Source of the DNA: Planctomycetota bacterium
GTDB taxonomy: Bacteria; Planctomycetota; UBA1135; UBA2386
NCBI GenBank assembly: GCA_965228735.1
Contig: OZ245838.1
Span: 3,395,997 to 3,459,996, forward strand
DNA length: 64,000 nucleotides
Reading direction: 5' to 3'
The position numbers and the translations under genes were made by a program. Positions 5,935 to 14,887 of this stretch are shown piece by piece. Under the pieces are notes generated by a model. It was not told the DNA's origin. It worked only from the letters and a program-made list of their open reading frames with translations, and made no database searches. The first letter of the stretch is position 1. Each line of letters starts with the position of its first letter.

Positions 5935-7065
5935 TTATTCCGCCCGCGTCGGGCCCGAATCGACCCCGCAAAGCTGCCCGAGCAGGGTCGCGATCCGGCC
6001 AGCGGCGTGGCCGTCGCCGTAGGGGTTCTCCGCCCGCGCCATCGCCGCGCGGGCGCCCGGATCGTCGAGCAGGGCGCCAGCCTCGCGCACGATGGCCGCC
6101 GAGTCGACCCCCACGAGCCGGGCGACGCCGGCCTCGATGCCCTCGGGCCGTTCGGTCTCGTCCCGCAGCACCAGCACGGGGACGCCGAAGCTCGGCGCCT
6201 CCTCCTGGATCCCGCCGCTGTCCGTGAGGATCAGGCTCGCGTCCGTCATCGCCGCGACCGTCGTCGGGTAGTCGAACGGCTCCGCGAGGCGAACGCGTGG
6301 ATGATCCGCGAGCACGGCCTGGGCCACGCGCTGCACGTTGGGGTTGGGATGCACCGGGAACAGCAGTTCGACATCGTCGCGATCGGCGAGCGCGCGCAGC
6401 CCCGAGCAAAGCGACTCGAACGGCGCACCGAAGTGTTCGCGCCGGTGGGCCGTGACGAACACGAGATGCCGGCCCGGCGCGGGCCGGAACCGGCCGCCGG
6501 ACACCCTCGCCCGCGTCTGTTCGAGCGCGTCGACGACCGGGTTGCCCGTGACGTGCACGCGCCCACCCGGCACGCCCTCGCGCAGGAGGCTCATGCGCGC
6601 GCGGTCGGTCGGCGCGAAGTGGATCGCCGCGAGGCGCGCGACCATCGCGCGGTTGGCCTCCTCCGGGAACGGCCGCTCGGGGTTGCCGGTCCGGAGCCCC
6701 GCCTCGACGTGCGCGAACGGGATGCGGCGGTAGAACGCCGCGAGCGCCGCGGTGAACACCGTCGTCGTGTCGCCCTGCGCGACGACGACCGCGGGCCGCT
6801 CGTGCACCAGTGCTGCGTCGAACCGTTCGAGCAGCCGCGCCGTGAGCCCGCTGAGCTGCTGGTCCGGCTGCATCACGTCGAGATCGCGATCGGGCGCGAT
6901 GTCGAAGAAGCCGAGCGCCTGGTCGAGCAGTTCGCGGTGCTGCGCGGTCGCGAGCACGCGGCAATCCGCCCAGTCGCTCCGCCGCAGCGCCTGGATGACG
7001 GGCGCCATCTTGACCGCCTCGGCGCGCGTGCCGACGACGGTCAGGACGCGGACCGGGCTCACCAC
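5935..7065 (-). CDS. wecB: UDP-N-acetylglucosamine 2-epimerase (non-hydrolysing)
   Basis: Full-length match to the WecB/MnaA family (VLTVVGTRAEAVKMAPV, HVEAGLRTGN, TDSGGIQEEAPSFGVPVLVLRDETERPEG). Start overlaps the secretin stop. Confidence 0.9.
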   Translation of the reverse strand: MVSPVRVLTVVGTRAEAVKMAPVIQALRRSDWADCRVLATAQHRELLDQALGFFDIAPDRDLDVMQPDQQLSGLTARLLERFDAALVHERPAVVVAQGDTTTVFTAALAAFYRRIPFAHVEAGLRTGNPERPFPEEANRAMVARLAAIHFAPTDRARMSLLREGVPGGRVHVTGNPVVDALEQTRARVSGGRFRPAPGRHLVFVTAHRREHFGAPFESLCSGLRALADRDDVELLFPVHPNPNVQRVAQAVLADHPRVRLAEPFDYPTTVAAMTDASLILTDSGGIQEEAPSFGVPVLVLRDETERPEGIEAGVARLVGVDSAAIVREAGALLDDPGARAAMARAENPYGDGHAAGRIATLLGQLCGVDSGPTRAE

Positions 7066-8594
7066 GCCGAATCGCCGGTCGGATCACCCCGGTCGGTGAC
7101 GATGCGCGGCGTGATGTAGAACTCGACCGTGGTCTTGTTGCTCTGGGTCGAGGTCGAACGGAACAGGAAGCCGAGGATCGGGATGTCGCCGAGCAGCGGC
7201 ACCTTGGTCTCGCTCTCGAACGTCGTCTCGGACTGCAGCCCGCCGATCACCAGCGTGTGGTTGTTCTTCAGGTAGACCGTCGTCACGGCCGTGCGATTGC
7301 TCGTGATCGGCGTCACGACCGGATCGGTGTTCGCAAAGCCCGTGATCGCGGACACGTCGGCGTAGACCTGCAGGATGACCGAGTCGGTGCCGGCGATCGT
7401 CGGCACGATGTTCATCTTCACGCCGACCGGCTTGAACGAGATGTCGGTCGCGACGTTGGAGCCGAGCTGGTTGATCTTGGCCTTCGGAAACGGCACGTCC
7501 GTGAACGTCGCGATCGACGCCACGCCGCCGTTGCGCACGACGAGCTTCGGCGAGTTCTGGATGTCCGCGATGTTGTTGGCCTCGAGCGCCTCGAGGACCA
7601 TGTTGAGCTCCCAGCTGTCGTGGATGCCGCCGAGCTGAAAGAGCCCGATGTCGGTCACGGGGGTCGCGCCGACGATCGGCTGGCTCAGCGGGAAGATCGA
7701 CGTGAACGAGCGCACGAGCTGGCCGCTCGACAGGTTGCTCAAGACCGGCGTGTTGCTGTCGATCGCGGTCACGCCGAACGCGAGCGCGTCGGCGACGCTG
7801 TACTCGACGACCTGCACCGTGATCTCGATCTGCGGGATGCTGCCGTAGAACAGGTCGAGCGCGGCCTCGAACGCGTTGAGCGCCGACGGCTGCGCCGTGA
7901 TGATCGCGAGCGACACGGTCGGCCCGGCCGTCGGCGGCGCCAACGCCGTGCTCATGATCGCCGTGCCCTTCGGCGGGTCGACGATCTTGGCGCCACCGAG
8001 CACCTCGAAGTCCTGCACGTAGGTGACCTCGATCTCGTGCTCGCGCAGCATCCGCCCGAGCACGCTCGTGCCCTCGGCCCCGCCGATCTTGGTCCCGGCA
8101 GGCGGCGGCGTAGTAGCCGGGGCGACCGGCTTGCCGGGCTCGATCTTGGTGATGAGCTTGAGGAACGTCGTCGCGAGGTCGCCCGCGAGGAAGTACTGCT
8201 TCGTGACGGTGCCGTCGGTGTTGACGAGCACGCTGCTGCCGAACTCGGTGCGCAGCCGGGCGGCGCGCTGTTCCTGACTCTCGTCCTGCGGGTCCTGGGG
8301 CGCGAAGCGCGAACGCCCCGCCGTATTCTCGTTTGCAGGATCGGCAGCGGGGTTGCCAGCTCCGGGGCCGCGGGTGCCGGTCGCGTCCGCGGCGGTGGCC
8401 CCGGCGCCGGCCAGCCCCCATGCCAGCGGACCGGCGGACTCACCCCCGAGGGCCGCCCGTTCCTCGACCGCGAACTGGACGTCGAGCGGGTTGACCCGCT
8501 TCTTGCCCGCGCTGACACAACCAGCGGTCAGCTGGAGGGCTGACAGGGAGACCAGGAGCAGCAGCGCGCGCGTCGGCACGACCGGGATTGTCAT
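7059..8594 (-). CDS. gspD: Secretin-family outer-membrane channel lipoprotein (GspD/PilQ-like)
   Basis: Lipoprotein signal (LSALQLTAGC). Canonical secretin C-domain (KVPLLGDIPILGFLFRSTSTQSNKTTVEFYITPRIV). N-terminal N0/N1-like domains. Confidence 0.85.
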   Translation of the reverse strand: MTIPVVPTRALLLLVSLSALQLTAGCVSAGKKRVNPLDVQFAVEERAALGGESAGPLAWGLAGAGATAADATGTRGPGAGNPAADPANENTAGRSRFAPQDPQDESQEQRAARLRTEFGSSVLVNTDGTVTKQYFLAGDLATTFLKLITKIEPGKPVAPATTPPPAGTKIGGAEGTSVLGRMLREHEIEVTYVQDFEVLGGAKIVDPPKGTAIMSTALAPPTAGPTVSLAIITAQPSALNAFEAALDLFYGSIPQIEITVQVVEYSVADALAFGVTAIDSNTPVLSNLSSGQLVRSFTSIFPLSQPIVGATPVTDIGLFQLGGIHDSWELNMVLEALEANNIADIQNSPKLVVRNGGVASIATFTDVPFPKAKINQLGSNVATDISFKPVGVKMNIVPTIAGTDSVILQVYADVSAITGFANTDPVVTPITSNRTAVTTVYLKNNHTLVIGGLQSETTFESETKVPLLGDIPILGFLFRSTSTQSNKTTVEFYITPRIVTDRGDPTGDSAW

Positions 8595-8628: not shown

Positions 8629-9015
8629 CTACTCTTCGATCTTCTCGATGACCTTGTCGGTCAGGTCCGCGACGTCGCGACCCTGCTTGTCCGAGATATC
8701 GTCTTTCCTAACGACGAGATCCCGGCTCTCGTCGGTCGCGATCTCCTTGACCGCGGCTCGGATCCGCTTGTTCATCTTGCGGACGAGTTGCTTGCCGCGC
8801 GCAGAATCCACGTCGATGGACTCGGCTTCGATCGTCTTCCACTCCTCCGTGACCTCTTTGACCTTGTCGAGGTCGATCACGGCGGGGGCACTCGTATTGG
8901 AAGAGCTCCCGAAGTAGACGACGGCCCCTCGCTTGAGGGTGACCTGAGCCGTCGCGGTGCACGCCAGCAGGGCCATCACGACCAGGGTGAGGATCTTGTT
9001 GGTGCAGGACTTCAT
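8629..9015 (-). CDS. skp: OmpH/Skp-like periplasmic chaperone
   Basis: Signal peptide (MKSCTNKILTLVVMALLACTATAQ). ~105-aa coiled-coil-rich mature part with DLVV...DI-type OmpH signature. Locally lower GC. Confidence 0.6.
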   Translation of the reverse strand: MKSCTNKILTLVVMALLACTATAQVTLKRGAVVYFGSSSNTSAPAVIDLDKVKEVTEEWKTIEAESIDVDSARGKQLVRKMNKRIRAAVKEIATDESRDLVVRKDDISDKQGRDVADLTDKVIEKIEE

Positions 9016-9723
9016 GGTGTTGCTCGGAAAGTCTGGCCGTTCGCCTATCGGCCAGACGTAGATCGCTAGTGTAGAGAAGTGCAGCAAACACGATGGCAAG
9101 GTTCTTGCCTACCGTCAGCCCGTCTGTGGATGTGATCTTTTTTCCACAGACCGAATGGGCTCGTGAGGGGACCTGAGAGAACAACGTGCTCGGAACCACG
9201 AACGGGCGACCAAAGCGGTCCCGAGGACGCTGAACCCGGGTGCCAGTCCTCGGCAAGGCGTCAGCTGCCTTGGCAAGGGGACACGCGGGTCAAAGTCCCA
9301 AGCGCGTTATTCGCCAGAAGCACGCAGACTTCTTCGAATTCTCGCGGCCGTAGGCTCGCGGCCTCTCGGCGAACGATCGAGCAAGTCCTTTGACTGCATC
9401 GCGTTGAGTCGACGGGCGCACGTTCGCACGAAGCCGCGTTCGCGGTCTCGTTACATTCGGACGGCAACGAACACCCGGTACTCGCCCACGACGACGGAGC
9501 CATGGGCTGCGGCCCTCGCGCATCGCGGCAGCCCGCATCGACGTTGGCGCCGGGTGCGCGCGCTCGAGCTCGTTCGCGACGAGTCGCAAATCGAGATCGG
9601 TGACAGGTCGACGCCGCACCCCGAACGGGGGTGCCGATCGTCGGGCTCGCCGGTCATCGGGCGCGCCGGTCGTGGGGCGCGCCAGTCGTAGGGTGGGACG
9701 CGGCAGCGCTGCCGCTGCCCCAC

Positions 9724-12700
9724 TCAGCGCCGCGTGCGGCGGCGGCGGCGCGCCGGGCGTTCGCCCTCGTCGCCGAGCAGGCTGTCGATCGACTCGAGCT
9801 CGCCGACCCCTTCGCCGCTGTCGGCGAACGGGCGCGGCGCCTCGTCCTCGTCGAAGTCGGCCATCGGCATCTCACGCTCGGCGCCGCCGCGGCTGCGGCG
9901 GCCGCGCGGCCGATCGTCGCCCTCGTCGTCACGCCGGCTGCGGCCACGGCCGCCACTGCGGCCCCGACGACCGTCGCGCGCGGCGTCGTCGTCGTCATCG
10001 CGACGCGGCGCGCGGCGCGGCTCGTCGTCGTCGTCGCGGCGCGGGCTGCGGCGGGCACCGCGGCCACGGCCGCGATCCGCATCGTCGCGACCCCGCGGCT
10101 CCTCGTCGGCATCGTCGCGGCCGCCGCGGCGCGGCCGGCGCGTCGGCCGGTCCTCGAAGTCGTCCTGGCCGTCGTCGCGGCCACGGCCACGATCGCGGTC
10201 GCGGTCGCTCCGACCACCACGCCCGCGCGGCGCCTCGTCCGCGAAGTCGTCCTCGGCGTCCCGACCGCCCCGACTGCGGCCGCCGCGGCCGCGGCCACGA
10301 TCCTCGCGGTCGTCGCGCTCCTCGCGCTCCTCACGACCACGAAGCGGGCGCCGGCCCTCGGGCCGATCGTCCCGGTCCTCGCGGTCGTCGCGGTCCCGGC
10401 CGCGCCCGCGGCCACGATCGCCACGACCACGCGGCCGCTCCTCGGCGTCCCCGCTCTCCTCGTAGCGCTCGTCACGGCGACCCGGACGTCCGCGCGCGGA
10501 CCGATCGTCCTCGCCCGCGTCGTCCGCCGGCCGGTGGCCACGACGCGGCCGATCCTCGAACGAATCGCGGTCAACGCGGCCACGGCCACCGCGATCCCGG
10601 TCACCGCGGTCGCGATCGCCCCGATCCCGGTCACCCCGATCCCGGTCGCCCCGCTCACCACGACGACCGCGGTCCCCGCGATCCTCGCGATCACCGCGCT
10701 CCCGCCGCCCGCGCGGCCGGTCGTCGCCGTCACCATCCGGCGCGGCGTCCGCACCTTCGAGCAGCGCCTTGCGGCTGAGCTTGACCTTGCCGAAGTCGTC
10801 GATCGCGATGACCTTGACCTTGACCTTGTCACCGATGCGCACGACGTCCGTGACGGCCTTGATGAACTCGTTGCTGAGCTCGGAGACGTGCACGAGGCCT
10901 TCCTGACCCGGCAGGATCTCGACGAACGCGCCGAACTCCTTGATCGCCGTGACCGTGCCCTCGTAGACCGTGCCGAGTTCGACCTCGGCCGTCATCTGCG
11001 AGATGTACTCGACGCACTGATCGACCTTCTCGCCGACGACGCCCGTGACCGTGCACAGGCCGCTGTCCTCGATCGAGATCTTGCACTCGTAGGTCTCCTG
11101 CAGCATCCGGATGTTCTTGCCACCCGGGCCGATGATCGTGCCGATCTTGTCGGCCGGCACCTGCACGGAGACGAGTCGCGGCGCGTTCGAGCTCAGCTTC
11201 TCCCGCGGCTGCTTCAGCACCTTGAGCATCTCGCGCAGGATGTGCACGCGGCCGACGCGGGCCTGCTCGAGCGCTTCGGCGAGGATCTCACGCGTGAGGC
11301 CCTCGCACTTGATGTCCATCTGCAGCGCGGTGATGCCGCGGCCGGTGCCGACGACCTTGAAGTCCATGTCGCCGCACGCGTCCTCGCTGCCGAGGATGTC
11401 GGACAGGATCGCGTAGTCCTTGCCCTCCATGACCAGGCCCATCGCGATGCCGGCGACCGGCTGCTTGATCGGCACACCGGCGTCCATCATCGCGAGCGTG
11501 CCGGCACACGCGGTCGCCATCGACGAACTGCCGTTCGACTCGAGCACCTCGCTCGTCACGCGGATCGTGTAGGGGAACTCCTCCAGCGCCGGCAGCACCG
11601 GCTCGAGACCGCGCTCGGCGAGCGCGCCGTGACCGATCTCGCGGCGACCCGGCGCGAGCATGCGCTTGGTCTCGCCCACGGAGAACGGCGGGAACGCGTA
11701 GTGCAGCAGGAAGCGCTTGCGCGGCTCCGGCATCAGCCCGTCGATGATCTGCTGATCGTCCGTGCCGCCGAGCGTGACGACACCGAGCGCCTGCGTCTCA
11801 CCGCGCGTGAACAGCGTCGAGCCGTGCGTGCGCGGCAGCACCCCGACCTCGATCGTGATCGGACGGATCGTCTTCGGGTCGCGACCGTCGGCGCGCGTCG
11901 CGTTGTCGAGGATCGAGTCGCGCTCGGCCTGCTTGACCAGCTTGCCGATGATCTCGGAGACCGCCTTGTCGTGCGCCTTCTGCTCGGCCTCGCTGAGCTT
12001 GCTGTCCGCGGGGAACGCGGCCTTGGCCTCGTCCTTCGCGGCCTTGATCGCGGCCTGGCGCACCTGCTTCGGGCCCTCGGTCACCGGGGCCGCGCGCAGC
12101 GCCTTGCCGCACTTCTTCTCGATCGCCTTCTGGAGCTTGGTGTCGACCGTCGGCACCGTGTACTCCATCTCGGGCTTGCCGGCCTGCTCGACGAGCTCCT
12201 CGATCATGTCGACGATCTCGCGGATGACCCCGTGCGCGAGCTCGAGCGCGTCGAGCACCTCGGCCTCGCTGACCTCGTTCGCGCCGGCCTCGACCATCGC
12301 GATCGCGTCCTCGTGACCGGCGACCGTCAGGTTGAGCTTGTTGCCCTCGTCGTGCAGCTGCGTCCACGTCGGGTTGACGATCAGCTCGTCCCCGATCATG
12401 CCGATGCGCACCATGCCGAGCGTGCGGCCGTGCGGCAGCGAGCTCAGCGCGAGCGCGGCGAACGACGCGACGCCGGCGAGCACGTCACCGTCGTTCTCGC
12501 GGTCCGACGAGATCACCTGCGACAGCACCTGCACGTCGCGCTTGAAGCCGTCCGGGAACATCGGGCGGATCGAGCGGTCGATGATGCGGCACGCGAGGAT
12601 CTCCTTCGTCGTCGGCCGGCCTTCACGCTTGAAGAAGCCGCCGGGGATCATGCCCGCGGCCGCGGTCTTCTCGCGGTAGTCGACGGTCAGCGGGAAGAAG

Positions 12701-13017
12701 TCGAAGCCGTCGGGGGCCTTGTTGCTGTTGACCGCGGCGAGCACCATCGTGTCGCCGTAGCGCGCGACGACGGCGCCGTCGCTGAGCTTCATCATGCGGC
12801 CGGTCTCGAGCCGCAGCGTGCGGCCCGCGATCTCGCGCTCGACGACGACCATGTCGGGGTAGAGGTCCGACGCGGCGCTGACGCTCTTCGTCTTCTTGGT
12901 CGCTTTCTTGGTGGCCTTCTTCGTGGCCTTCTTGGCGCCGGCGGCCTTCTTCGTGGCCTTCTTGCGCGGCGCGCGGGTGGAGGTGGAGGAGGATGCAGCC
13001 TTCTTCTTGGTTGCCAT
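9724..13017 (-). CDS. pnp: Polynucleotide phosphorylase with atypical Lys-rich N-terminal and ~400-aa Arg/Asp/Gly-rich C-terminal extensions
   Basis: Canonical PNPase core: two RNase PH domains, KH (GPGGKNIRMLQETYECKISIEDSG) and S1 (VYEGTVTAIKEFGAFVEILPGQEGLVHVSELS). Core ends ~KVKLSRK and is followed by an RD/RG/RGG-rich tail. Upstream in-frame (KKAT)n segment starts from ATG 13017. Immediately downstream of rpsO. Confidence 0.9.
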   Translation of the reverse strand: MATKKKAASSSTSTRAPRKKATKKAAGAKKATKKATKKATKKTKSVSAASDLYPDMVVVEREIAGRTLRLETGRMMKLSDGAVVARYGDTMVLAAVNSNKAPDGFDFFPLTVDYREKTAAAGMIPGGFFKREGRPTTKEILACRIIDRSIRPMFPDGFKRDVQVLSQVISSDRENDGDVLAGVASFAALALSSLPHGRTLGMVRIGMIGDELIVNPTWTQLHDEGNKLNLTVAGHEDAIAMVEAGANEVSEAEVLDALELAHGVIREIVDMIEELVEQAGKPEMEYTVPTVDTKLQKAIEKKCGKALRAAPVTEGPKQVRQAAIKAAKDEAKAAFPADSKLSEAEQKAHDKAVSEIIGKLVKQAERDSILDNATRADGRDPKTIRPITIEVGVLPRTHGSTLFTRGETQALGVVTLGGTDDQQIIDGLMPEPRKRFLLHYAFPPFSVGETKRMLAPGRREIGHGALAERGLEPVLPALEEFPYTIRVTSEVLESNGSSSMATACAGTLAMMDAGVPIKQPVAGIAMGLVMEGKDYAILSDILGSEDACGDMDFKVVGTGRGITALQMDIKCEGLTREILAEALEQARVGRVHILREMLKVLKQPREKLSSNAPRLVSVQVPADKIGTIIGPGGKNIRMLQETYECKISIEDSGLCTVTGVVGEKVDQCVEYISQMTAEVELGTVYEGTVTAIKEFGAFVEILPGQEGLVHVSELSNEFIKAVTDVVRIGDKVKVKVIAIDDFGKVKLSRKALLEGADAAPDGDGDDRPRGRRERGDREDRGDRGRRGERGDRDRGDRDRGDRDRGDRDRGGRGRVDRDSFEDRPRRGHRPADDAGEDDRSARGRPGRRDERYEESGDAEERPRGRGDRGRGRGRDRDDREDRDDRPEGRRPLRGREEREERDDREDRGRGRGGRSRGGRDAEDDFADEAPRGRGGRSDRDRDRGRGRDDGQDDFEDRPTRRPRRGGRDDADEEPRGRDDADRGRGRGARRSPRRDDDDEPRRAPRRDDDDDAARDGRRGRSGGRGRSRRDDEGDDRPRGRRSRGGAEREMPMADFDEDEAPRPFADSGEGVGELESIDSLLGDEGERPARRRRRTRR

Positions 13018-13325
13018 GTGATTCTTGGTTTCGCTTCGTGTCGTGCGCTGCATCGCGGCCGCCCCTACTTGGGGCCCGAGCCCAGGTGCAATCACCTGCG
13101 TGTGCGAGCAGTGCGGCGGAGCGCGGCCCGGACGGGCGCGGTGGACTCCGCAGAGCGGCGGGTGCGCGTTCGCGCGGCACCGGCCAATCAGTAAATGCCC
13201 GATCGGACTCGCCCCCTGGAGGGGTCGCCGGTCGAGATGAGCGGCCGCGCGTCCTTGCGCATAGCCGCGGGTTGGTTCAGGTAAGTCTCCGAGACGGTTG
13301 GTTGGACCCGCCTGCGGAAGGCCCC

Positions 13326-13601
13326 CTACTTGCGGAGGCCGAGCTTCGCAGCGAGTTCGGTATAACGAGGCAGGTCCTTGCGGCGCAGGTAAGCGCTGAG
13401 CTTGTTGCGACGGTTGACCTTCTTCAGCAGACCGTGCCGGCTGTGGTAGTCCTTCGGGTGACGCTTCATGTGGGCGGTGAGTTCTTTGATCTCGGCCGTC
13501 AGGAGCGCGATCTGGACGTCGGCAGACCCACTGTCTTTGTCGTGGCGCCGGTTGTCTTCGATGATCTGGGACTTGAGGTTGGCTTCGCCGGTATCGGTCA
13601 T
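13326..13601 (-). CDS. rpsO: 30S ribosomal protein S15
   Basis: 91-aa product [91 protein letters not shown] matches the S15 family throughout. Classic rpsO-pnp arrangement. Confidence 0.95.
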
Positions 13602-13891: not shown

Positions 13892-14551
13892 CTACGGCAG
13901 CCGGTTCGGCTTCGGCAGGTGCGCCATGAGCTCGACGATGGCGAGCTCCGCGCAGCTGCGGGCCATGTAGTCCTGGTCCCGCGGCGCCGCCCCGGCACCA
14001 CCCGCCTTGATCTCGCCGCTCAGCGTCCCGTACCACAGCTGCGCCCCGGTTCGATCGACGAGCGCCGCCTGCAGCTGGAAGTAGACGCGGCGGTTGATCA
14101 GCAGCTTGGACTCGTCCCAGCGATCGATCCGGACCGCCAGCGAACTCTCCTCACCCGTCGCGGCGGCCGCCTGCTGCAGCCAGGTCGGGTCGAGCACCGA
14201 ACTCGTCGCGTTCGCCGCGCTGGCCACCGCCGAGCTGCCGCGCAGCGCCGCGTCGACCTTCTGGCGGTGAATCGGCGCATAGTTGCGCAGCACGAGCTGA
14301 CGTTCGAGCTCCTGACGCAGGAACGTCAGGTGCCGTCCGACGGCCTGGTTGTCGGTGCCGTCCTCGACGGGCAGCACCGCGACCTGCGTCGGCGCCTTCA
14401 CCGCGAGCGCGGGCGCGCTCGTGAACGAGGGATAGACCGAGATCGGCTCGGCGGTGCGGCAGCCCGCGGGGACCACCGAGACCGCGATCCACAGGAACAA
14501 CAGCGCGGCTGCAGCAGCGGCCCGCCTGACGACGCTTCTCTGGTTGACCAT
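13892..14551 (-). CDS. Hypothetical lipoprotein
   Basis: Start at [10 protein letters not shown]...; signal peptide with lipobox (VVPAGC). The longer upstream ORF extension is Arg-rich and implausible. Confidence 0.4.
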
Positions 14552-14887
14552 TGACCGTTCCTCTCGCGAACGCCGACTGACCGGACGGCGGCTCGCGCTG
14601 GCAGCGATTCCGGTGCGACCATAACCAGCCGATTCGCCGGATTCCACCCACGCTCCCCGGATCCCAGCACCGAACGGAGCTCTGCACGAACCGATCACTG
14701 CTCCGAAATGATCTGCGCACGGAGCTGATGTCTTGCGTGTGGTCGAACACTCGCAACTCGTTGTCTGCACCGCGATCCCGAAAAATGCGTCCGTCTCGAC
14801 TGCAGCCCCGTCGCTGCGAGCGCGCGACCCACCGGCGCTACGGCGCGGCGCGAACCGGCGAATCCACACGCATGACATCAGTAGCGG

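What the first reader, a model, noticed from the sequence alone, without database searches (positions are those of the whole stretch)
9724..13017. PNPase with histone-H1-like Lys/Ala/Thr-rich N-terminal tail and ~400-aa Arg/Asp/Gly-rich intrinsically disordered C-terminal tail
The catalytic core (PH-PH-KH-S1) ends near ...KVKLSRKALLEGA but the ORF continues for ~400 residues of RGDRDRGDRDRG, RGRGRDRDDRED, RGG and RD repeats. Upstream, an in-frame (KKAT)n segment, MATKKKAASSSTSTRAPRKKATKKAAGAKKATKKATKKATKK, precedes the canonical MVVVEREIAGRTL start. AAG-rich repeats in a 70 % GC genome are unlikely to be chance. Typical PNPases are ~700-720 aa. Such tails resemble the disordered scaffolding region of RNase E and condensate-forming RNA-decay proteins. 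They may mediate RNA binding or degradosome/condensate assembly in an organism lacking a long RNase E.
Basis: seen in the sequence. Interest (0 to 1): 0.55.

Follow-up and report, generated by a model that had tools for sequence, protein, structure and literature searches.

The report
PNPase with conserved disordered charged tails
An RNA-degrading enzyme (PNPase) from an uncultured Planctomycetota lineage carries a lysine-rich head and a roughly 345-residue arginine/acid-rich disordered tail, both kept in every complete copy found in about 58 related genomes; this suggests, but does not prove, that the enzyme brings its own RNA-binding and assembly scaffold.

Summary
ORF 9724-13017 (-) sits just downstream of rpsO and encodes a full PNPase core (aa 56-751). 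It also has a 55-aa Lys/Ala/Thr/Ser N-tail (net +16) and a 346-aa (not ~400) C-tail with R106, K0, D+E 107 and net charge -1. Both tails are lineage-conserved, not artefacts. About 58 species-level Planctomycetota MAGs plus 13 metagenome loci show the same architecture. The relatives' N-termini begin MA[TS]KK. The window's internal Met56 is a non-start codon in most relatives, so the N-tail is translated. C-tails vary from 100 to 621 aa and diverge fast. They stay Arg-only (R:K 4125:25) and charge-balanced (net -8 to +9). They end in a conserved acidic-hydrophobic module (MPMAEF...GELESIDSLLGDE) followed by a poly-Arg tip. AlphaFold gives pLDDT above 90 for the core and below 50 for both tails. 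The C-tail meets the published sequence criteria for arginine-enriched mixed-charge domains. The most likely role is RNA capture, multivalent self-association or condensation, and partner docking by a self-scaffolding PNPase. That role is inferred, not shown. Whether the organism lacks a long RNase E could not be tested. No description was found in the searched literature. I rate it a new variant of a known kind.

The parts
9724..13017 (-). pnp ORF, 1097 aa plus stop (TGA at 9724-9726); start taken as ATG 13017
   Evidence: the start is supported by the conserved MA[TS]KK N-terminus in ~55 relatives
12853..13017 (-). N-terminal tail, aa 1-55: K16 A13 T8 S7, net +16, predicted disordered
   Evidence: pLDDT <50 for residues 1-52; conserved in the clade
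12892..12971 (-). 12-bp and 30-bp tandem DNA repeats encoding (KKAT)n; repeat number differs in frame in a 93%-identical relative
12850..12852 (-). internal Met56 (MVVVER); not a start codon in most relatives
   Evidence: CGC/CAC/AAG/CCG at this position
10765..12852 (-). PNPase core aa 56-751: PH1, alpha-helical PNPase domain, PH2, KH, S1. The GSSS and DxDFK active-site motifs are invariant in the alignment
   Evidence: pLDDT >90; PDB PNPases cover query 51-767 only
9727..10764 (-). C-terminal tail aa 752-1097: R106 K0 D73 E34 G59; fraction of charged residues 0.62, net -1; predicted disordered
   Evidence: (pLDDT <50 for 756-1097)
10219..10743 (-). stretch (aa 759-933) meeting the published mixed-charge-domain criteria (60-aa windows, charged fraction >=0.7, +/- ratio 1 +/- 0.3)
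   Evidence: with criteria from bioRxiv 10.1101/771592
10582..10659 (-). (RGDRD)n peptide repeat on 15/30-bp tandem DNA repeats
9841..9870 (-). conserved motif 1, MPMADFDEDE (consensus [ML]P[MIL]x[ED]F[DEG]D)
   Evidence: a degenerate acid-Phe motif is present in 34/43 clade members
9766..9807 (-). conserved motif 2, VGELESIDSLLGDE; L and E invariant; hydrophobic spacing fits an amphipathic helix; lies a constant 23-31 aa from the C-terminus in all but one motif-bearing ortholog (36 aa in L045)
9727..9762 (-). polybasic C-terminal tip ERPARRRRRTRR (>=5 Arg/Lys in the last 12 aa in 41/43 relatives)
13326..13601 (-). rpsO (ribosomal protein S15) immediately upstream; the usual rpsO-pnp arrangement
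   Evidence: PF00312, 108 bits; conserved in 37 related loci
13018..13325 (-). rpsO-pnp intergenic leader; no exceptional structure and no Rfam match
   Evidence: z = -0.56
9560..9723 (-). very stable GC-rich hairpins directly after the stop codon, overlapping a 16-bp x 3.8 tandem repeat; a likely 3'-end structure
   Evidence: z = -4.1

Best explanation
This is the genuine, catalytically intact PNPase of an uncultured Planctomycetota lineage, and the enzyme has acquired its own disordered appendages. Three things are shown. Both tails are translated. Both are conserved across the clade in composition, charge and terminal motifs while the primary sequence turns over quickly by in-frame repeat gain and loss. 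Both are predicted disordered. The rest is inferred. PNPase is a trimer, so each particle would display three polycationic Lys-rich N-tails and three long Arg/Asp/Glu mixed-charge C-tails. The N-tail acts as a non-specific polyanion (RNA) catcher. It also offsets the acidic core. The Arg-only, charge-neutral C-tail provides multivalent cohesive contacts with itself and with RNA. This could concentrate the enzyme with substrates in degradosome-like or condensate-like assemblies. The conserved acidic-hydrophobic module plus poly-Arg tip at the far end is a docking element, either for a partner protein or for another PNPase trimer. In short, this would be a self-scaffolding PNPase carrying features that Proteobacteria place on the RNase E C-terminal domain.
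For: Identity: TIGR03591 scores 942.8 bits; the PH-PH-KH-S1 architecture is complete; rpsO lies upstream. Conservation: all complete PNPases with >=62% core identity have a 29-95 aa K/A/T/S/P/R-rich N-tail and an 81-621 aa R/D/E/G/P C-tail (two short N-termini in the protein set look like truncated gene calls). They form one clade in a neighbour-joining tree. Translation of the N-tail: the MA[TS]KK start is conserved and most relatives have no start codon at the internal position; a 93%-identical relative carries an in-frame repeat variant. Selection on physics rather than sequence: C-tail R:K is 4125:25; net charge stays -8 to +9 (sd 4.5, against ~14 expected from independent assignment) with 31-292 charged residues (>=100 in all but two tails); the N-tail uses Lys although Lys is only 1.8% of the other window proteins. 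The tail shares 58% identity plus 73 gap columns with L001, against 89% in the core. A distal module is conserved a constant 23-31 aa from the C-terminus in all but one motif-bearing ortholog (36 aa in L045), whatever the tail length, so reading through the whole tail is maintained. Disorder: AF2 pLDDT is <50 for 1-52 and 756-1097 and >90 for the core. Precedent: the tail meets the published mixed-charge-domain criteria. For such domains, RD repeats condense in a length-dependent way, Arg-to-Lys substitution abolishes condensation, and net charge tunes it (bioRxiv 10.1101/771592). Arg-rich disordered inserts raise RNA affinity in Rho from high-GC bacteria (PMC11347177). A poly-Arg nonapeptide at the end of cyanobacterial RNase E is a PNPase-binding site (PMC3964918).
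Against: There is no functional data of any kind. The charges are fairly well mixed (kappa 0.22, against 0.145 +/- 0.024 for shuffles), and well-mixed polyampholytes can be simply soluble and expanded. Only 19/43 orthologs reach the strict charged-fraction threshold of 0.7 (40/43 reach 0.6). AF2 predicted no helix and no docking for the module in a monomer. No partner gene is conserved next to pnp, and no other protein family carrying the module was found. Codon usage in the tail is relaxed (GC3 0.81 against 0.97), and the tail is built from slippage-prone repeats; both fit weaker constraint. The correlations were not corrected for phylogeny.
Confidence: 0.5

Rival explanations
1. The tails regulate the enzyme electrostatically within or between subunits rather than acting as scaffolds. 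The acidic module (net about -12) or acidic blocks of the C-tail mimic RNA and occupy the S1/KH or channel surfaces. The Lys N-tail neutralises the acidic core or pairs with the acidic module. Together they gate substrate access, in the manner of the acidic C-terminal tips of Hfq and SSB.
For: N-tail net charge anticorrelates with core net charge across 43 orthologs (r = -0.73). In the window the values are +16 and -16, and the whole protein is net -1. A strongly acidic conserved module sits beside a poly-Arg tip. The OB-fold / long linker / acidic-Phe motif layout resembles SSB; that resemblance is recalled from memory, so it is a lead and not a test.
Against: AF2 shows no docking of any tail segment on the core, though the model is a monomer. 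Gating would not need 100-620 aa of Arg-only mixed charge. The correlation is not phylogenetically corrected. This reading is compatible with the best explanation rather than exclusive of it.
Confidence: 0.2
2. The tails are tolerated low-complexity expansions with no specific function. Replication slippage in a ~70% GC genome generates CGN/GAC/GGC-rich repeats that drift in length.
For: Tandem DNA repeats underlie both tails. Sequence and length turn over rapidly. Codon usage is relaxed. Short R/G/D tails of 40-175 aa occur sporadically on PNPases of other lineages.
Against: Presence is universal in a clade of ~58 species-level genomes. Composition is Arg-only. Charge balance is about three times tighter than random. 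Lys is enriched against the mutational bias. The MA[TS]KK start, the distal bipartite module and the poly-Arg tip are conserved at fixed positions. No comparable tails were seen in 238 flanking ORFs of the clade or elsewhere in the 64-kb window.
Confidence: 0.15
3. The Lys/Ala/Thr N-tail is a DNA or nucleoid tether, like the H1-like tails of bacterial nucleoid proteins. It localises PNPase to the chromosome for co-transcriptional decay or for PNPase's proposed DNA-repair roles.
For: The composition resembles AKKA/KKAT-type H1-like tails. The polycation carries +4 to +23.
Against: No linker-histone or other DNA-binding domain was detected. A polycation binds RNA at least as well as DNA. In part of the clade the N-tail is R/P/G-rich rather than K/A-rich. 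The idea says nothing about the C-tail.
Confidence: 0.1
4. It is an artefact: a frameshift, a gene fusion or a misassembly creates the long ORF, or the N-tail is untranslated leader and the true start is Met56.
For: High-GC DNA gives long spurious ORFs in many frames. The window retains an ATG at codon 56. Assemblies often break inside this gene.
Against: The same architecture appears in ~58 independent genomes and 13 metagenome contigs. Another sample gives 100% identical sequence across the S1-tail junction. Most relatives have no start codon at position 56, and the upstream N-terminus is conserved. GC3 is 0.81-0.93 in frame.
Confidence: 0.02

Closest known systems
Canonical bacterial PNPase (E. 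coli, Caulobacter and Streptomyces; TIGR03591; PDB 3CDI, 4AIM, 1E3H and others)
   Same: The PH-PH-KH-S1 core is complete, the active-site motifs are invariant, and rpsO lies upstream.
   Different: Solved PNPase chains are 546-784 aa and align only to residues 51-767 of this protein. None has the 55-aa Lys-rich head or the 346-aa mixed-charge tail.
RNase E C-terminal scaffold domain (RNA degradosome and BR-bodies of Proteobacteria)
   Same: A long, fast-evolving disordered region on an RNA-decay nuclease. It is Arg-rich with mixed or alternating charge. Short conserved linear motifs are embedded in variable sequence. It is attached to an oligomeric catalytic core, which gives multivalency (literature).
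   Different: It sits on PNPase, which is the client in the proteobacterial system, not on RNase E. There is no sequence homology. Partner-binding, membrane-targeting and condensation properties are untested here.
[quoted passage not shown]
   Same: It meets the published sequence definition. It is Arg-only and near-neutral, and it is long enough for the reported length-dependent condensation of RD repeats.
   Different: It is bacterial and fused to an enzyme. Gly and Pro are interspersed. Many orthologs fall just below the 0.7 charged-fraction threshold. No condensation data exist.
Arg/Asp/Gly-rich disordered insertions of Rho in high-GC and PVC-group bacteria, and the disordered N-terminal extension of Type II RhlB
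   Same: Lineage-specific Arg-rich disordered regions added to conserved RNA-handling enzymes. They are reported to increase RNA affinity or drive RNA-dependent phase separation (PMC11347177; PMC13462270).
   Different: The host protein and the position differ. The PNPase tails additionally carry a conserved terminal bipartite motif and a separate Lys-type N-tail.
Poly-Arg nonapeptide (RRRRRRSSA) at the end of cyanobacterial RNase E
   Same: A short poly-arginine element at the extreme C-terminus of an RNA-decay nuclease's disordered region. In cyanobacteria it is the PNPase-binding site (PMC3964918). Here 41/43 PNPases end in such a tip.
   Different: Here it is on PNPase itself, so any PNPase binding would be self-association. 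No binding test was possible.

Membership tests
Polyribonucleotide nucleotidyltransferase (PNPase, TIGR03591 / NF008805) | Whole-protein score above the curated equivalog cut-off | tested here: met
   942.8 bits against 525 (TIGR03591); 926 against 471 (NF008805)
Polyribonucleotide nucleotidyltransferase (PNPase, TIGR03591 / NF008805) | Domain order RNase PH - helical PNPase domain - RNase PH - KH - S1 | tested here: met
   Pfam hits PF01138 x2, PF03725 x2, PF03726, PF00013 and PF00575 in order within aa 60-751; the AF2 core has pLDDT >90
Polyribonucleotide nucleotidyltransferase (PNPase, TIGR03591 / NF008805) | Conserved phosphate- and metal-binding motifs of the second PH domain (GSSS; DxDFK) | tested here: met
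   S497-S499, D550, D552, F553 and K554 are invariant columns in the 95-sequence alignment. Assignment of their roles is from general knowledge of PNPase.
Polyribonucleotide nucleotidyltransferase (PNPase, TIGR03591 / NF008805) | Homotrimer with phosphorolytic 3'-5' exonuclease activity | not testable with these tools
   Needs biochemistry or multimer modelling
Actinobacterial GpsI-type PNPase / pppGpp synthetase (TIGR02696) | Score above the family cut-off | tested here: not met
   614.3 bits against a cutoff of 1106.75
Arginine-enriched mixed-charge domain (R-MCD; Greig et al.) | A 60-aa window with charged fraction >=0.7 and positive:negative ratio 1 +/- 0.3 | tested here: met
   36 windows covering aa 759-933 in the window protein; 19/43 orthologs meet it, and 40/43 at a charged fraction >=0.6 (criteria)
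Arginine-enriched mixed-charge domain (R-MCD; Greig et al.) | The positive charge is supplied by Arg rather than Lys | tested here: met
   R106/K0 in the window; 4125 R against 25 K over 43 C-tails
Arginine-enriched mixed-charge domain (R-MCD; Greig et al.) | Length-dependent condensation or gelation | not testable with these tools
   Requires purified protein or in-cell imaging
RNase E-type degradosome scaffold region | Long disordered region on an oligomeric ribonuclease, with conserved short linear motifs in otherwise variable sequence | tested here: met
   pLDDT <50; 58% identity in the tail against 89% in the core; conserved motifs at fixed distance from the C-terminus
RNase E-type degradosome scaffold region | Motifs bind defined partners (helicase, enolase, exonuclease) and/or RNA | not testable with these tools
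   No partner was identifiable. No conserved neighbour gene. The module was found on no other protein family.
RNase E-type degradosome scaffold region | Homology to the RNase E catalytic or non-catalytic region | tested here: not met
   No RNase E/G family hit in Pfam or NCBIfam; only PNPase and S1-type families match. The resemblance is functional and architectural only.
Linker histone H1 / H1-like nucleoid protein | Lys/Ala/Thr(Pro)-rich basic low-complexity tail | tested here: met
   K16 A13 T8 S7 in 55 aa, net +16
Linker histone H1 / H1-like nucleoid protein | Globular linker-histone or other DNA-binding domain, or detectable homology | tested here: not met
   No Pfam or NCBIfam family matches aa 1-55. 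'H1-like' is compositional only.
SSB-type disordered linker plus acidic tip | Acidic-hydrophobic motif at the extreme C-terminus ending in Phe | tested here: not met
   The acid-Phe motif lies ~40-50 aa from the end and is followed by motif 2 and a poly-Arg tip

The most novel reading that the evidence does not exclude
In this Planctomycetota lineage the RNA-decay hub is built on PNPase instead of RNase E. The trimeric enzyme's own Arg-type mixed-charge tails would drive RNA-dependent condensation. That would make it the first bacterial counterpart of eukaryotic R-MCD cohesion. The conserved MPMAEF / GELESIDSLLGDE / poly-Arg end would recruit the other decay enzymes or cross-link trimers head to tail with the Lys-rich N-tails.
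Probability: 0.25. Interest if true: 0.75.

Novelty: new variant of a known kind. Interest (0 to 1): 0.55.

Why it matters
Work on bacterial RNA-decay organisation centres on disordered scaffolds carried by the endonuclease (RNase E, and RNase Y or J variants), with PNPase as a recruited client. Here a whole lineage keeps long disordered regions on PNPase itself, under clear selection for physical properties: Arg-only chemistry, charge neutrality and terminal motifs. This has three consequences. First, it gives a natural test of whether scaffold function can move between degradosome components. Second, it extends the mixed-charge-domain sequence grammar, studied in eukaryotic nuclear speckles, to a bacterial enzyme. 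Third, the Lys head and the Arg tail on one protein offer a built-in contrast of the two basic residues. There is also a practical point. The repetitive tail breaks assemblies and has seeded databases with 40-150 aa 'hypothetical proteins' that are really PNPase tail fragments.

Tried and rejected
(1) Searching the databases with the tail alone (aa 766-1046) found nothing, because composition filters removed all 8000 candidates. I therefore could not list which other protein families carry similar tails.

(2) Profile searches with the C-terminal module gave only 41-154 aa proteins in both the word-indexed set and the exhaustive search of 1.84 billion representatives. These proved to be gene-call fragments of PNPase tails at contig ends (L081) or a chimeric scaffold (P0146). 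The idea of a module shared with other proteins was dropped.

(3) The viral-contig scan for the module gave no hit. The metagenome scan with the stand-alone-looking P0143 also gave no hit.

(4) Rfam found nothing across the pnp region or the whole window. The rpsO-pnp leader folds no better than shuffles, so there is no evidence for an E. coli-style structured autoregulatory leader.

(5) AF2 of the full-length monomer predicted no helix and no docking for the module.

(6) No conserved neighbour other than rpsO and an upstream lipoprotein-like gene was found.

(7) No other protein with comparable charged tails was seen in the window or in 238 flanking ORFs of related loci.

(8) Looking up the exact 1097-aa or 1109-aa product to identify the source record failed.

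(9) Nine literature searches found no description of PNPase carrying its own long disordered tails. The library is incomplete, so this is absence of evidence only.


Full report
**Observation**

The minus-strand ORF 9724-13017 translates to 1097 aa without interruption. Pfam finds RNase_PH x2, RNase_PH_C x2, the PNPase helical domain, KH and S1, in that order, within aa 60-751. NCBIfam's PNPase equivalog TIGR03591 scores 942.8 bits against a cut-off of 525. Ribosomal protein S15 (rpsO, 13326-13601, PF00312) lies directly upstream, which is the classical rpsO-pnp arrangement.

Two segments match no family. The first is aa 1-55 (MATKKKAASSSTSTRAPRKKATKKAAGAKKATKKATKKATKKTKSVSAASDLYPD).

The N-tail is K16 A13 T8 S7, with net charge +16. 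The C-tail is R106 D73 G59 E34 with no lysine at all. Its charged fraction is 0.62 and its net charge is -1.

Against the other predicted proteins of the window (14,269 residues; K 1.8%, R 6.9%), these enrichments have binomial P of about 1e-15 and 1e-39. In-frame tandem DNA repeats of 12 and 30 bp (KKAT), 15 and 30 bp (RGDRD) and 36 bp underlie parts of both tails.

**Not an artefact**

High-GC DNA yields long ORFs in many frames, so ORF length alone proves nothing. The comparative evidence is what decides it.

A protein search returned about 60 close homologues (62-85% core identity, all from Planctomycetota MAGs or metagenomes) of 900-1195 aa. Homologues below about 60% identity were mostly 700-780 aa.

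A scan of one genome per species returned about 58 loci of the same clade. In every complete locus the frame stays open 100-621 codons beyond S1, with R at 16-38% plus D/E/G/P. An in-frame ATG lies 41-95 codons upstream of the core.

An independent assembly from another sample is 100% identical to the window over 3571 nt, spanning rpsO, the N-tail, the core and the first ~110 tail residues. Thirteen further metagenome contigs carry the same tail end. Eight of them have the whole PNPase ORF, and the other five are open to the contig edge.

**The N-tail is translated**

The deduced N-termini of the relatives all begin MA[TS]KK[KS]A, followed by a variable K/A/T/S/P/R-rich stretch. The codon aligned with the window's internal Met56 is CGC, CAC, AAG, CCG and similar in most relatives, so they have no start codon there. 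A 93%-identical relative differs in the N-tail by an in-frame change in repeat number.

In this genome two further in-frame starts exist upstream: ATG 13053 (+12 aa) and GTG 13095. Clade-wide conservation of the N-terminus favours 13017. In the closest relative (L001) the open frame reaches only one codon upstream of MATKK. Lysine enrichment runs against the mutational bias of a ~70% GC genome, whereas the C-tail uses only arginine.

**Selection acts on physical properties, not on sequence**

Against the closest species-level relative (L001), the core is 89% identical. The C-tail is 58% identical over aligned positions, with 73 gap columns, all in frame.

Across 43 orthologs the following hold:

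- C-tail R:K is 4125:25.
- Net charge stays between -8 and +9, although each tail has 31-292 charged residues (>=100 in all but two). The sd is 4.5, against about 14 expected if signs were assigned independently.
- N-tails carry +4 to +23.
- N-tail charge anticorrelates with core charge (r = -0.73, not phylogenetically corrected).

Charge patterning in the window tail is moderately more segregated than random: kappa is 0.22, against 0.145 +/- 0.024 for shuffles. Codon usage is more relaxed in the tail, with GC3 0.81 against 0.97 in the core.

**A conserved terminal module**

Tail length varies widely, yet the subclade with >=72% core identity keeps a bipartite acidic-hydrophobic module. Its first motif is [ML]P[MIL]x[ED]F[DEG]D. 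After 10-30 variable residues comes [VI]G[EQK]LE[SP][IL][DE][SND][LV][LI]G[DE]. The second motif lies a constant 23-31 aa from the C-terminus in all but one motif-bearing ortholog (36 aa in L045).

Across the whole clade, 34/43 proteins keep an acid-Phe motif in the last 110 aa, and 41/43 end in a polybasic tip such as RRPRRRD or GGRRRR. In the window these elements are MPMADFDEDE (aa 1050-1059), VGELESIDSLLGDE (1071-1084) and ERPARRRRRTRR (1086-1097). Because the module sits at the far end, selection must maintain translation through the entire tail.

Profile searches with the module recovered only 41-154 aa 'hypothetical proteins'. This was true both for the 5.8 billion-cluster set (word index) and for 1.84 billion representatives (exhaustive HMMER). 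Inspection showed these to be PNPase tail fragments. L081's frame is open and R/D/E/P-rich to the contig start, and it belongs to the same MAG as L023, whose contig ends inside the tail. P0146 is a chimeric scaffold whose tail part matches L092, L094 and L095. No other protein family carrying the module was found, and none was found in viral contigs.

**Structure**

AlphaFold2 with a 95-sequence alignment gives pLDDT above 90 for 599 residues of the core. It gives pLDDT below 50 for residues 1-52 and 756-1097, with no secondary structure in either tail. All solved PNPase chains are 546-784 aa and align only to residues 51-767. The GSSS and DxDFK motifs are invariant in the alignment, so the enzyme looks catalytically competent.

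**Phylogenetic distribution**

In a neighbour-joining tree of core sequences, PNPases with both an N-tail and a long C-tail form one clade. A second, separate Planctomycetota group has long C-tails (106-453 aa) without an N-tail. Many others have short R/G/D tails of 40-175 aa or none.

I infer that Arg/acid C-extensions are recurrent or old in the phylum, that the Lys-rich head was gained once, and that the conserved terminal module is specific to the inner subclade. All members are uncultured, and their sources include lakes, ocean, soil or rhizosphere, and activated sludge.

**Mechanism (inference)**

PNPase is a homotrimer, so the tails would be presented three-fold. The C-tail satisfies the published sequence definition of a mixed-charge domain: 60-aa windows with charged fraction >=0.7 and charge ratio 1 +/- 0.3. 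The window protein has 36 such windows, covering aa 759-933. Of 43 orthologs, 19 meet the definition, and 40 meet it at a charged fraction of 0.6.

For such domains, Greig et al. report three things (bioRxiv 10.1101/771592). RD repeats condense in a length-dependent manner. Replacing Arg with Lys abolishes condensation. Net charge tunes the behaviour. These are the same properties that are conserved here.

Other precedents point the same way. Arg-rich disordered insertions in Rho of high-GC bacteria increase RNA affinity (PMC11347177). [quoted passage not shown] A poly-Arg nonapeptide at the end of cyanobacterial RNase E is the PNPase-binding site (PMC3964918).

My best reading, at about 0.5 confidence, is a self-scaffolding PNPase. 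The Lys head would capture RNA and offset the acidic core. The Arg mixed-charge tail would provide multivalent cohesion with RNA and with itself. The terminal module and tip would dock a partner or another trimer.

The main alternatives are these:

- Intramolecular electrostatic gating or autoinhibition (0.2). This is compatible with the best reading.
- Functionally neutral repeat expansion (0.15). Universality, Arg-only chemistry, charge balance and fixed-position motifs all argue against it.
- Nucleoid tethering by the N-tail (0.1).
- Artefact or untranslated N-tail (0.02).

**What remains open**

There are no functional data. The literature available to me contains no description of PNPase with its own long disordered tails, but that library is incomplete.

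I classify the finding as a new variant of a known kind: a canonical enzyme joined to known types of disordered region in a combination, and with a conserved terminal module, that appear undescribed.

Noticed in passing
window 9560-9723 (-), including the tandem repeat at 9633-9693: Directly after the pnp stop codon the RNA folds into very stable GC-rich hairpins (-94.4 kcal/mol, z = -4.1), overlapping a 16-bp x 3.8 tandem repeat. No U-tract terminator and no Rfam match. It may be a 3'-end protective or termination structure for the mRNA of a 3'-5' exonuclease.
   Followed up: partly
P0121-P0157; L081; L023; L101-L103: The repetitive, ~80% GC tail region often breaks metagenome assemblies. Databases therefore hold dozens of 41-154 aa 'hypothetical proteins' that are really C-terminal fragments of PNPase tails, often called from the Met of MPMAEF.
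   Followed up: yes
L083 1-500 (ENA ERZ838136, 500-nt contig, coverage 0.87): A 65-aa ORF (MSKKLISAEDVENGDYEFEDSDEAPARPFAEARDDVGQLESIDSLLGDEGDRPAPKRRPRRSTRR) carries the module closest to the window's own. It has an AT-rich upstream region with in-frame stops and a GGAG-like site, so it looks like a stand-alone gene. It could be a chimera or a real free-standing module peptide; a metagenome scan found no second copy.
   Followed up: partly
L082 (P0146, 1190-nt scaffold): A 154-aa call joins an unrelated helical N-terminal part to a PNPase tail end that is near-identical (identical linker, closely similar module) to that of L092, L094 and L095. It is most likely a chimeric scaffold.
   Followed up: yes
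P0021 (eukprot Undaria pinnatifida scaffold); L007 (MAG labelled Luminiphilus sp.); several MAGs labelled 'candidatus Brocadiaceae' or 'Kuenenia': Clade PNPases appear under taxonomically implausible labels: a brown-alga genome scaffold and a gammaproteobacterial MAG. This suggests contamination or mis-binning, and generic NCBI labels for uncultured Planctomycetota.
   Followed up: no
window 13018-13095 (-): Two additional in-frame start candidates lie upstream of ATG 13017: ATG 13053 (adding MQRTTRSETKNH, the start used by gene callers on identical contigs) and GTG 13095. The leader just before 13017 is A-rich and lacks a Shine-Dalgarno sequence, as in the relatives.
   Followed up: partly
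window 9631-13194 (+) and other frames over pnp: An 1187-aa antisense ORF and several 240-390-aa ORFs overlap pnp. They are Arg/Ala/Pro-rich products of alternative frames in GC-rich repeats and should not be annotated as genes.
   Followed up: partly
P0062, P0068, P0073, P0065, P0071: A separate Planctomycetota PNPase group (56-60% core identity) has long R/D/E-rich C-tails (106-453 aa) but no N-tail and no MPMAEF/LESIDS module. This points to independent or older gain of Arg/acid tails on PNPase.
   Followed up: partly
window 1-64000: The 64-kb window has no tRNA genes and no Rfam family at gathering threshold. The neighbours of pnp include a secretin (7059-8594), a weak OmpH-like small protein (8629-9015, below the Pfam cut-off), and a conserved lipoprotein-like gene upstream of rpsO (13892-14878) with no Pfam family.
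   Followed up: no
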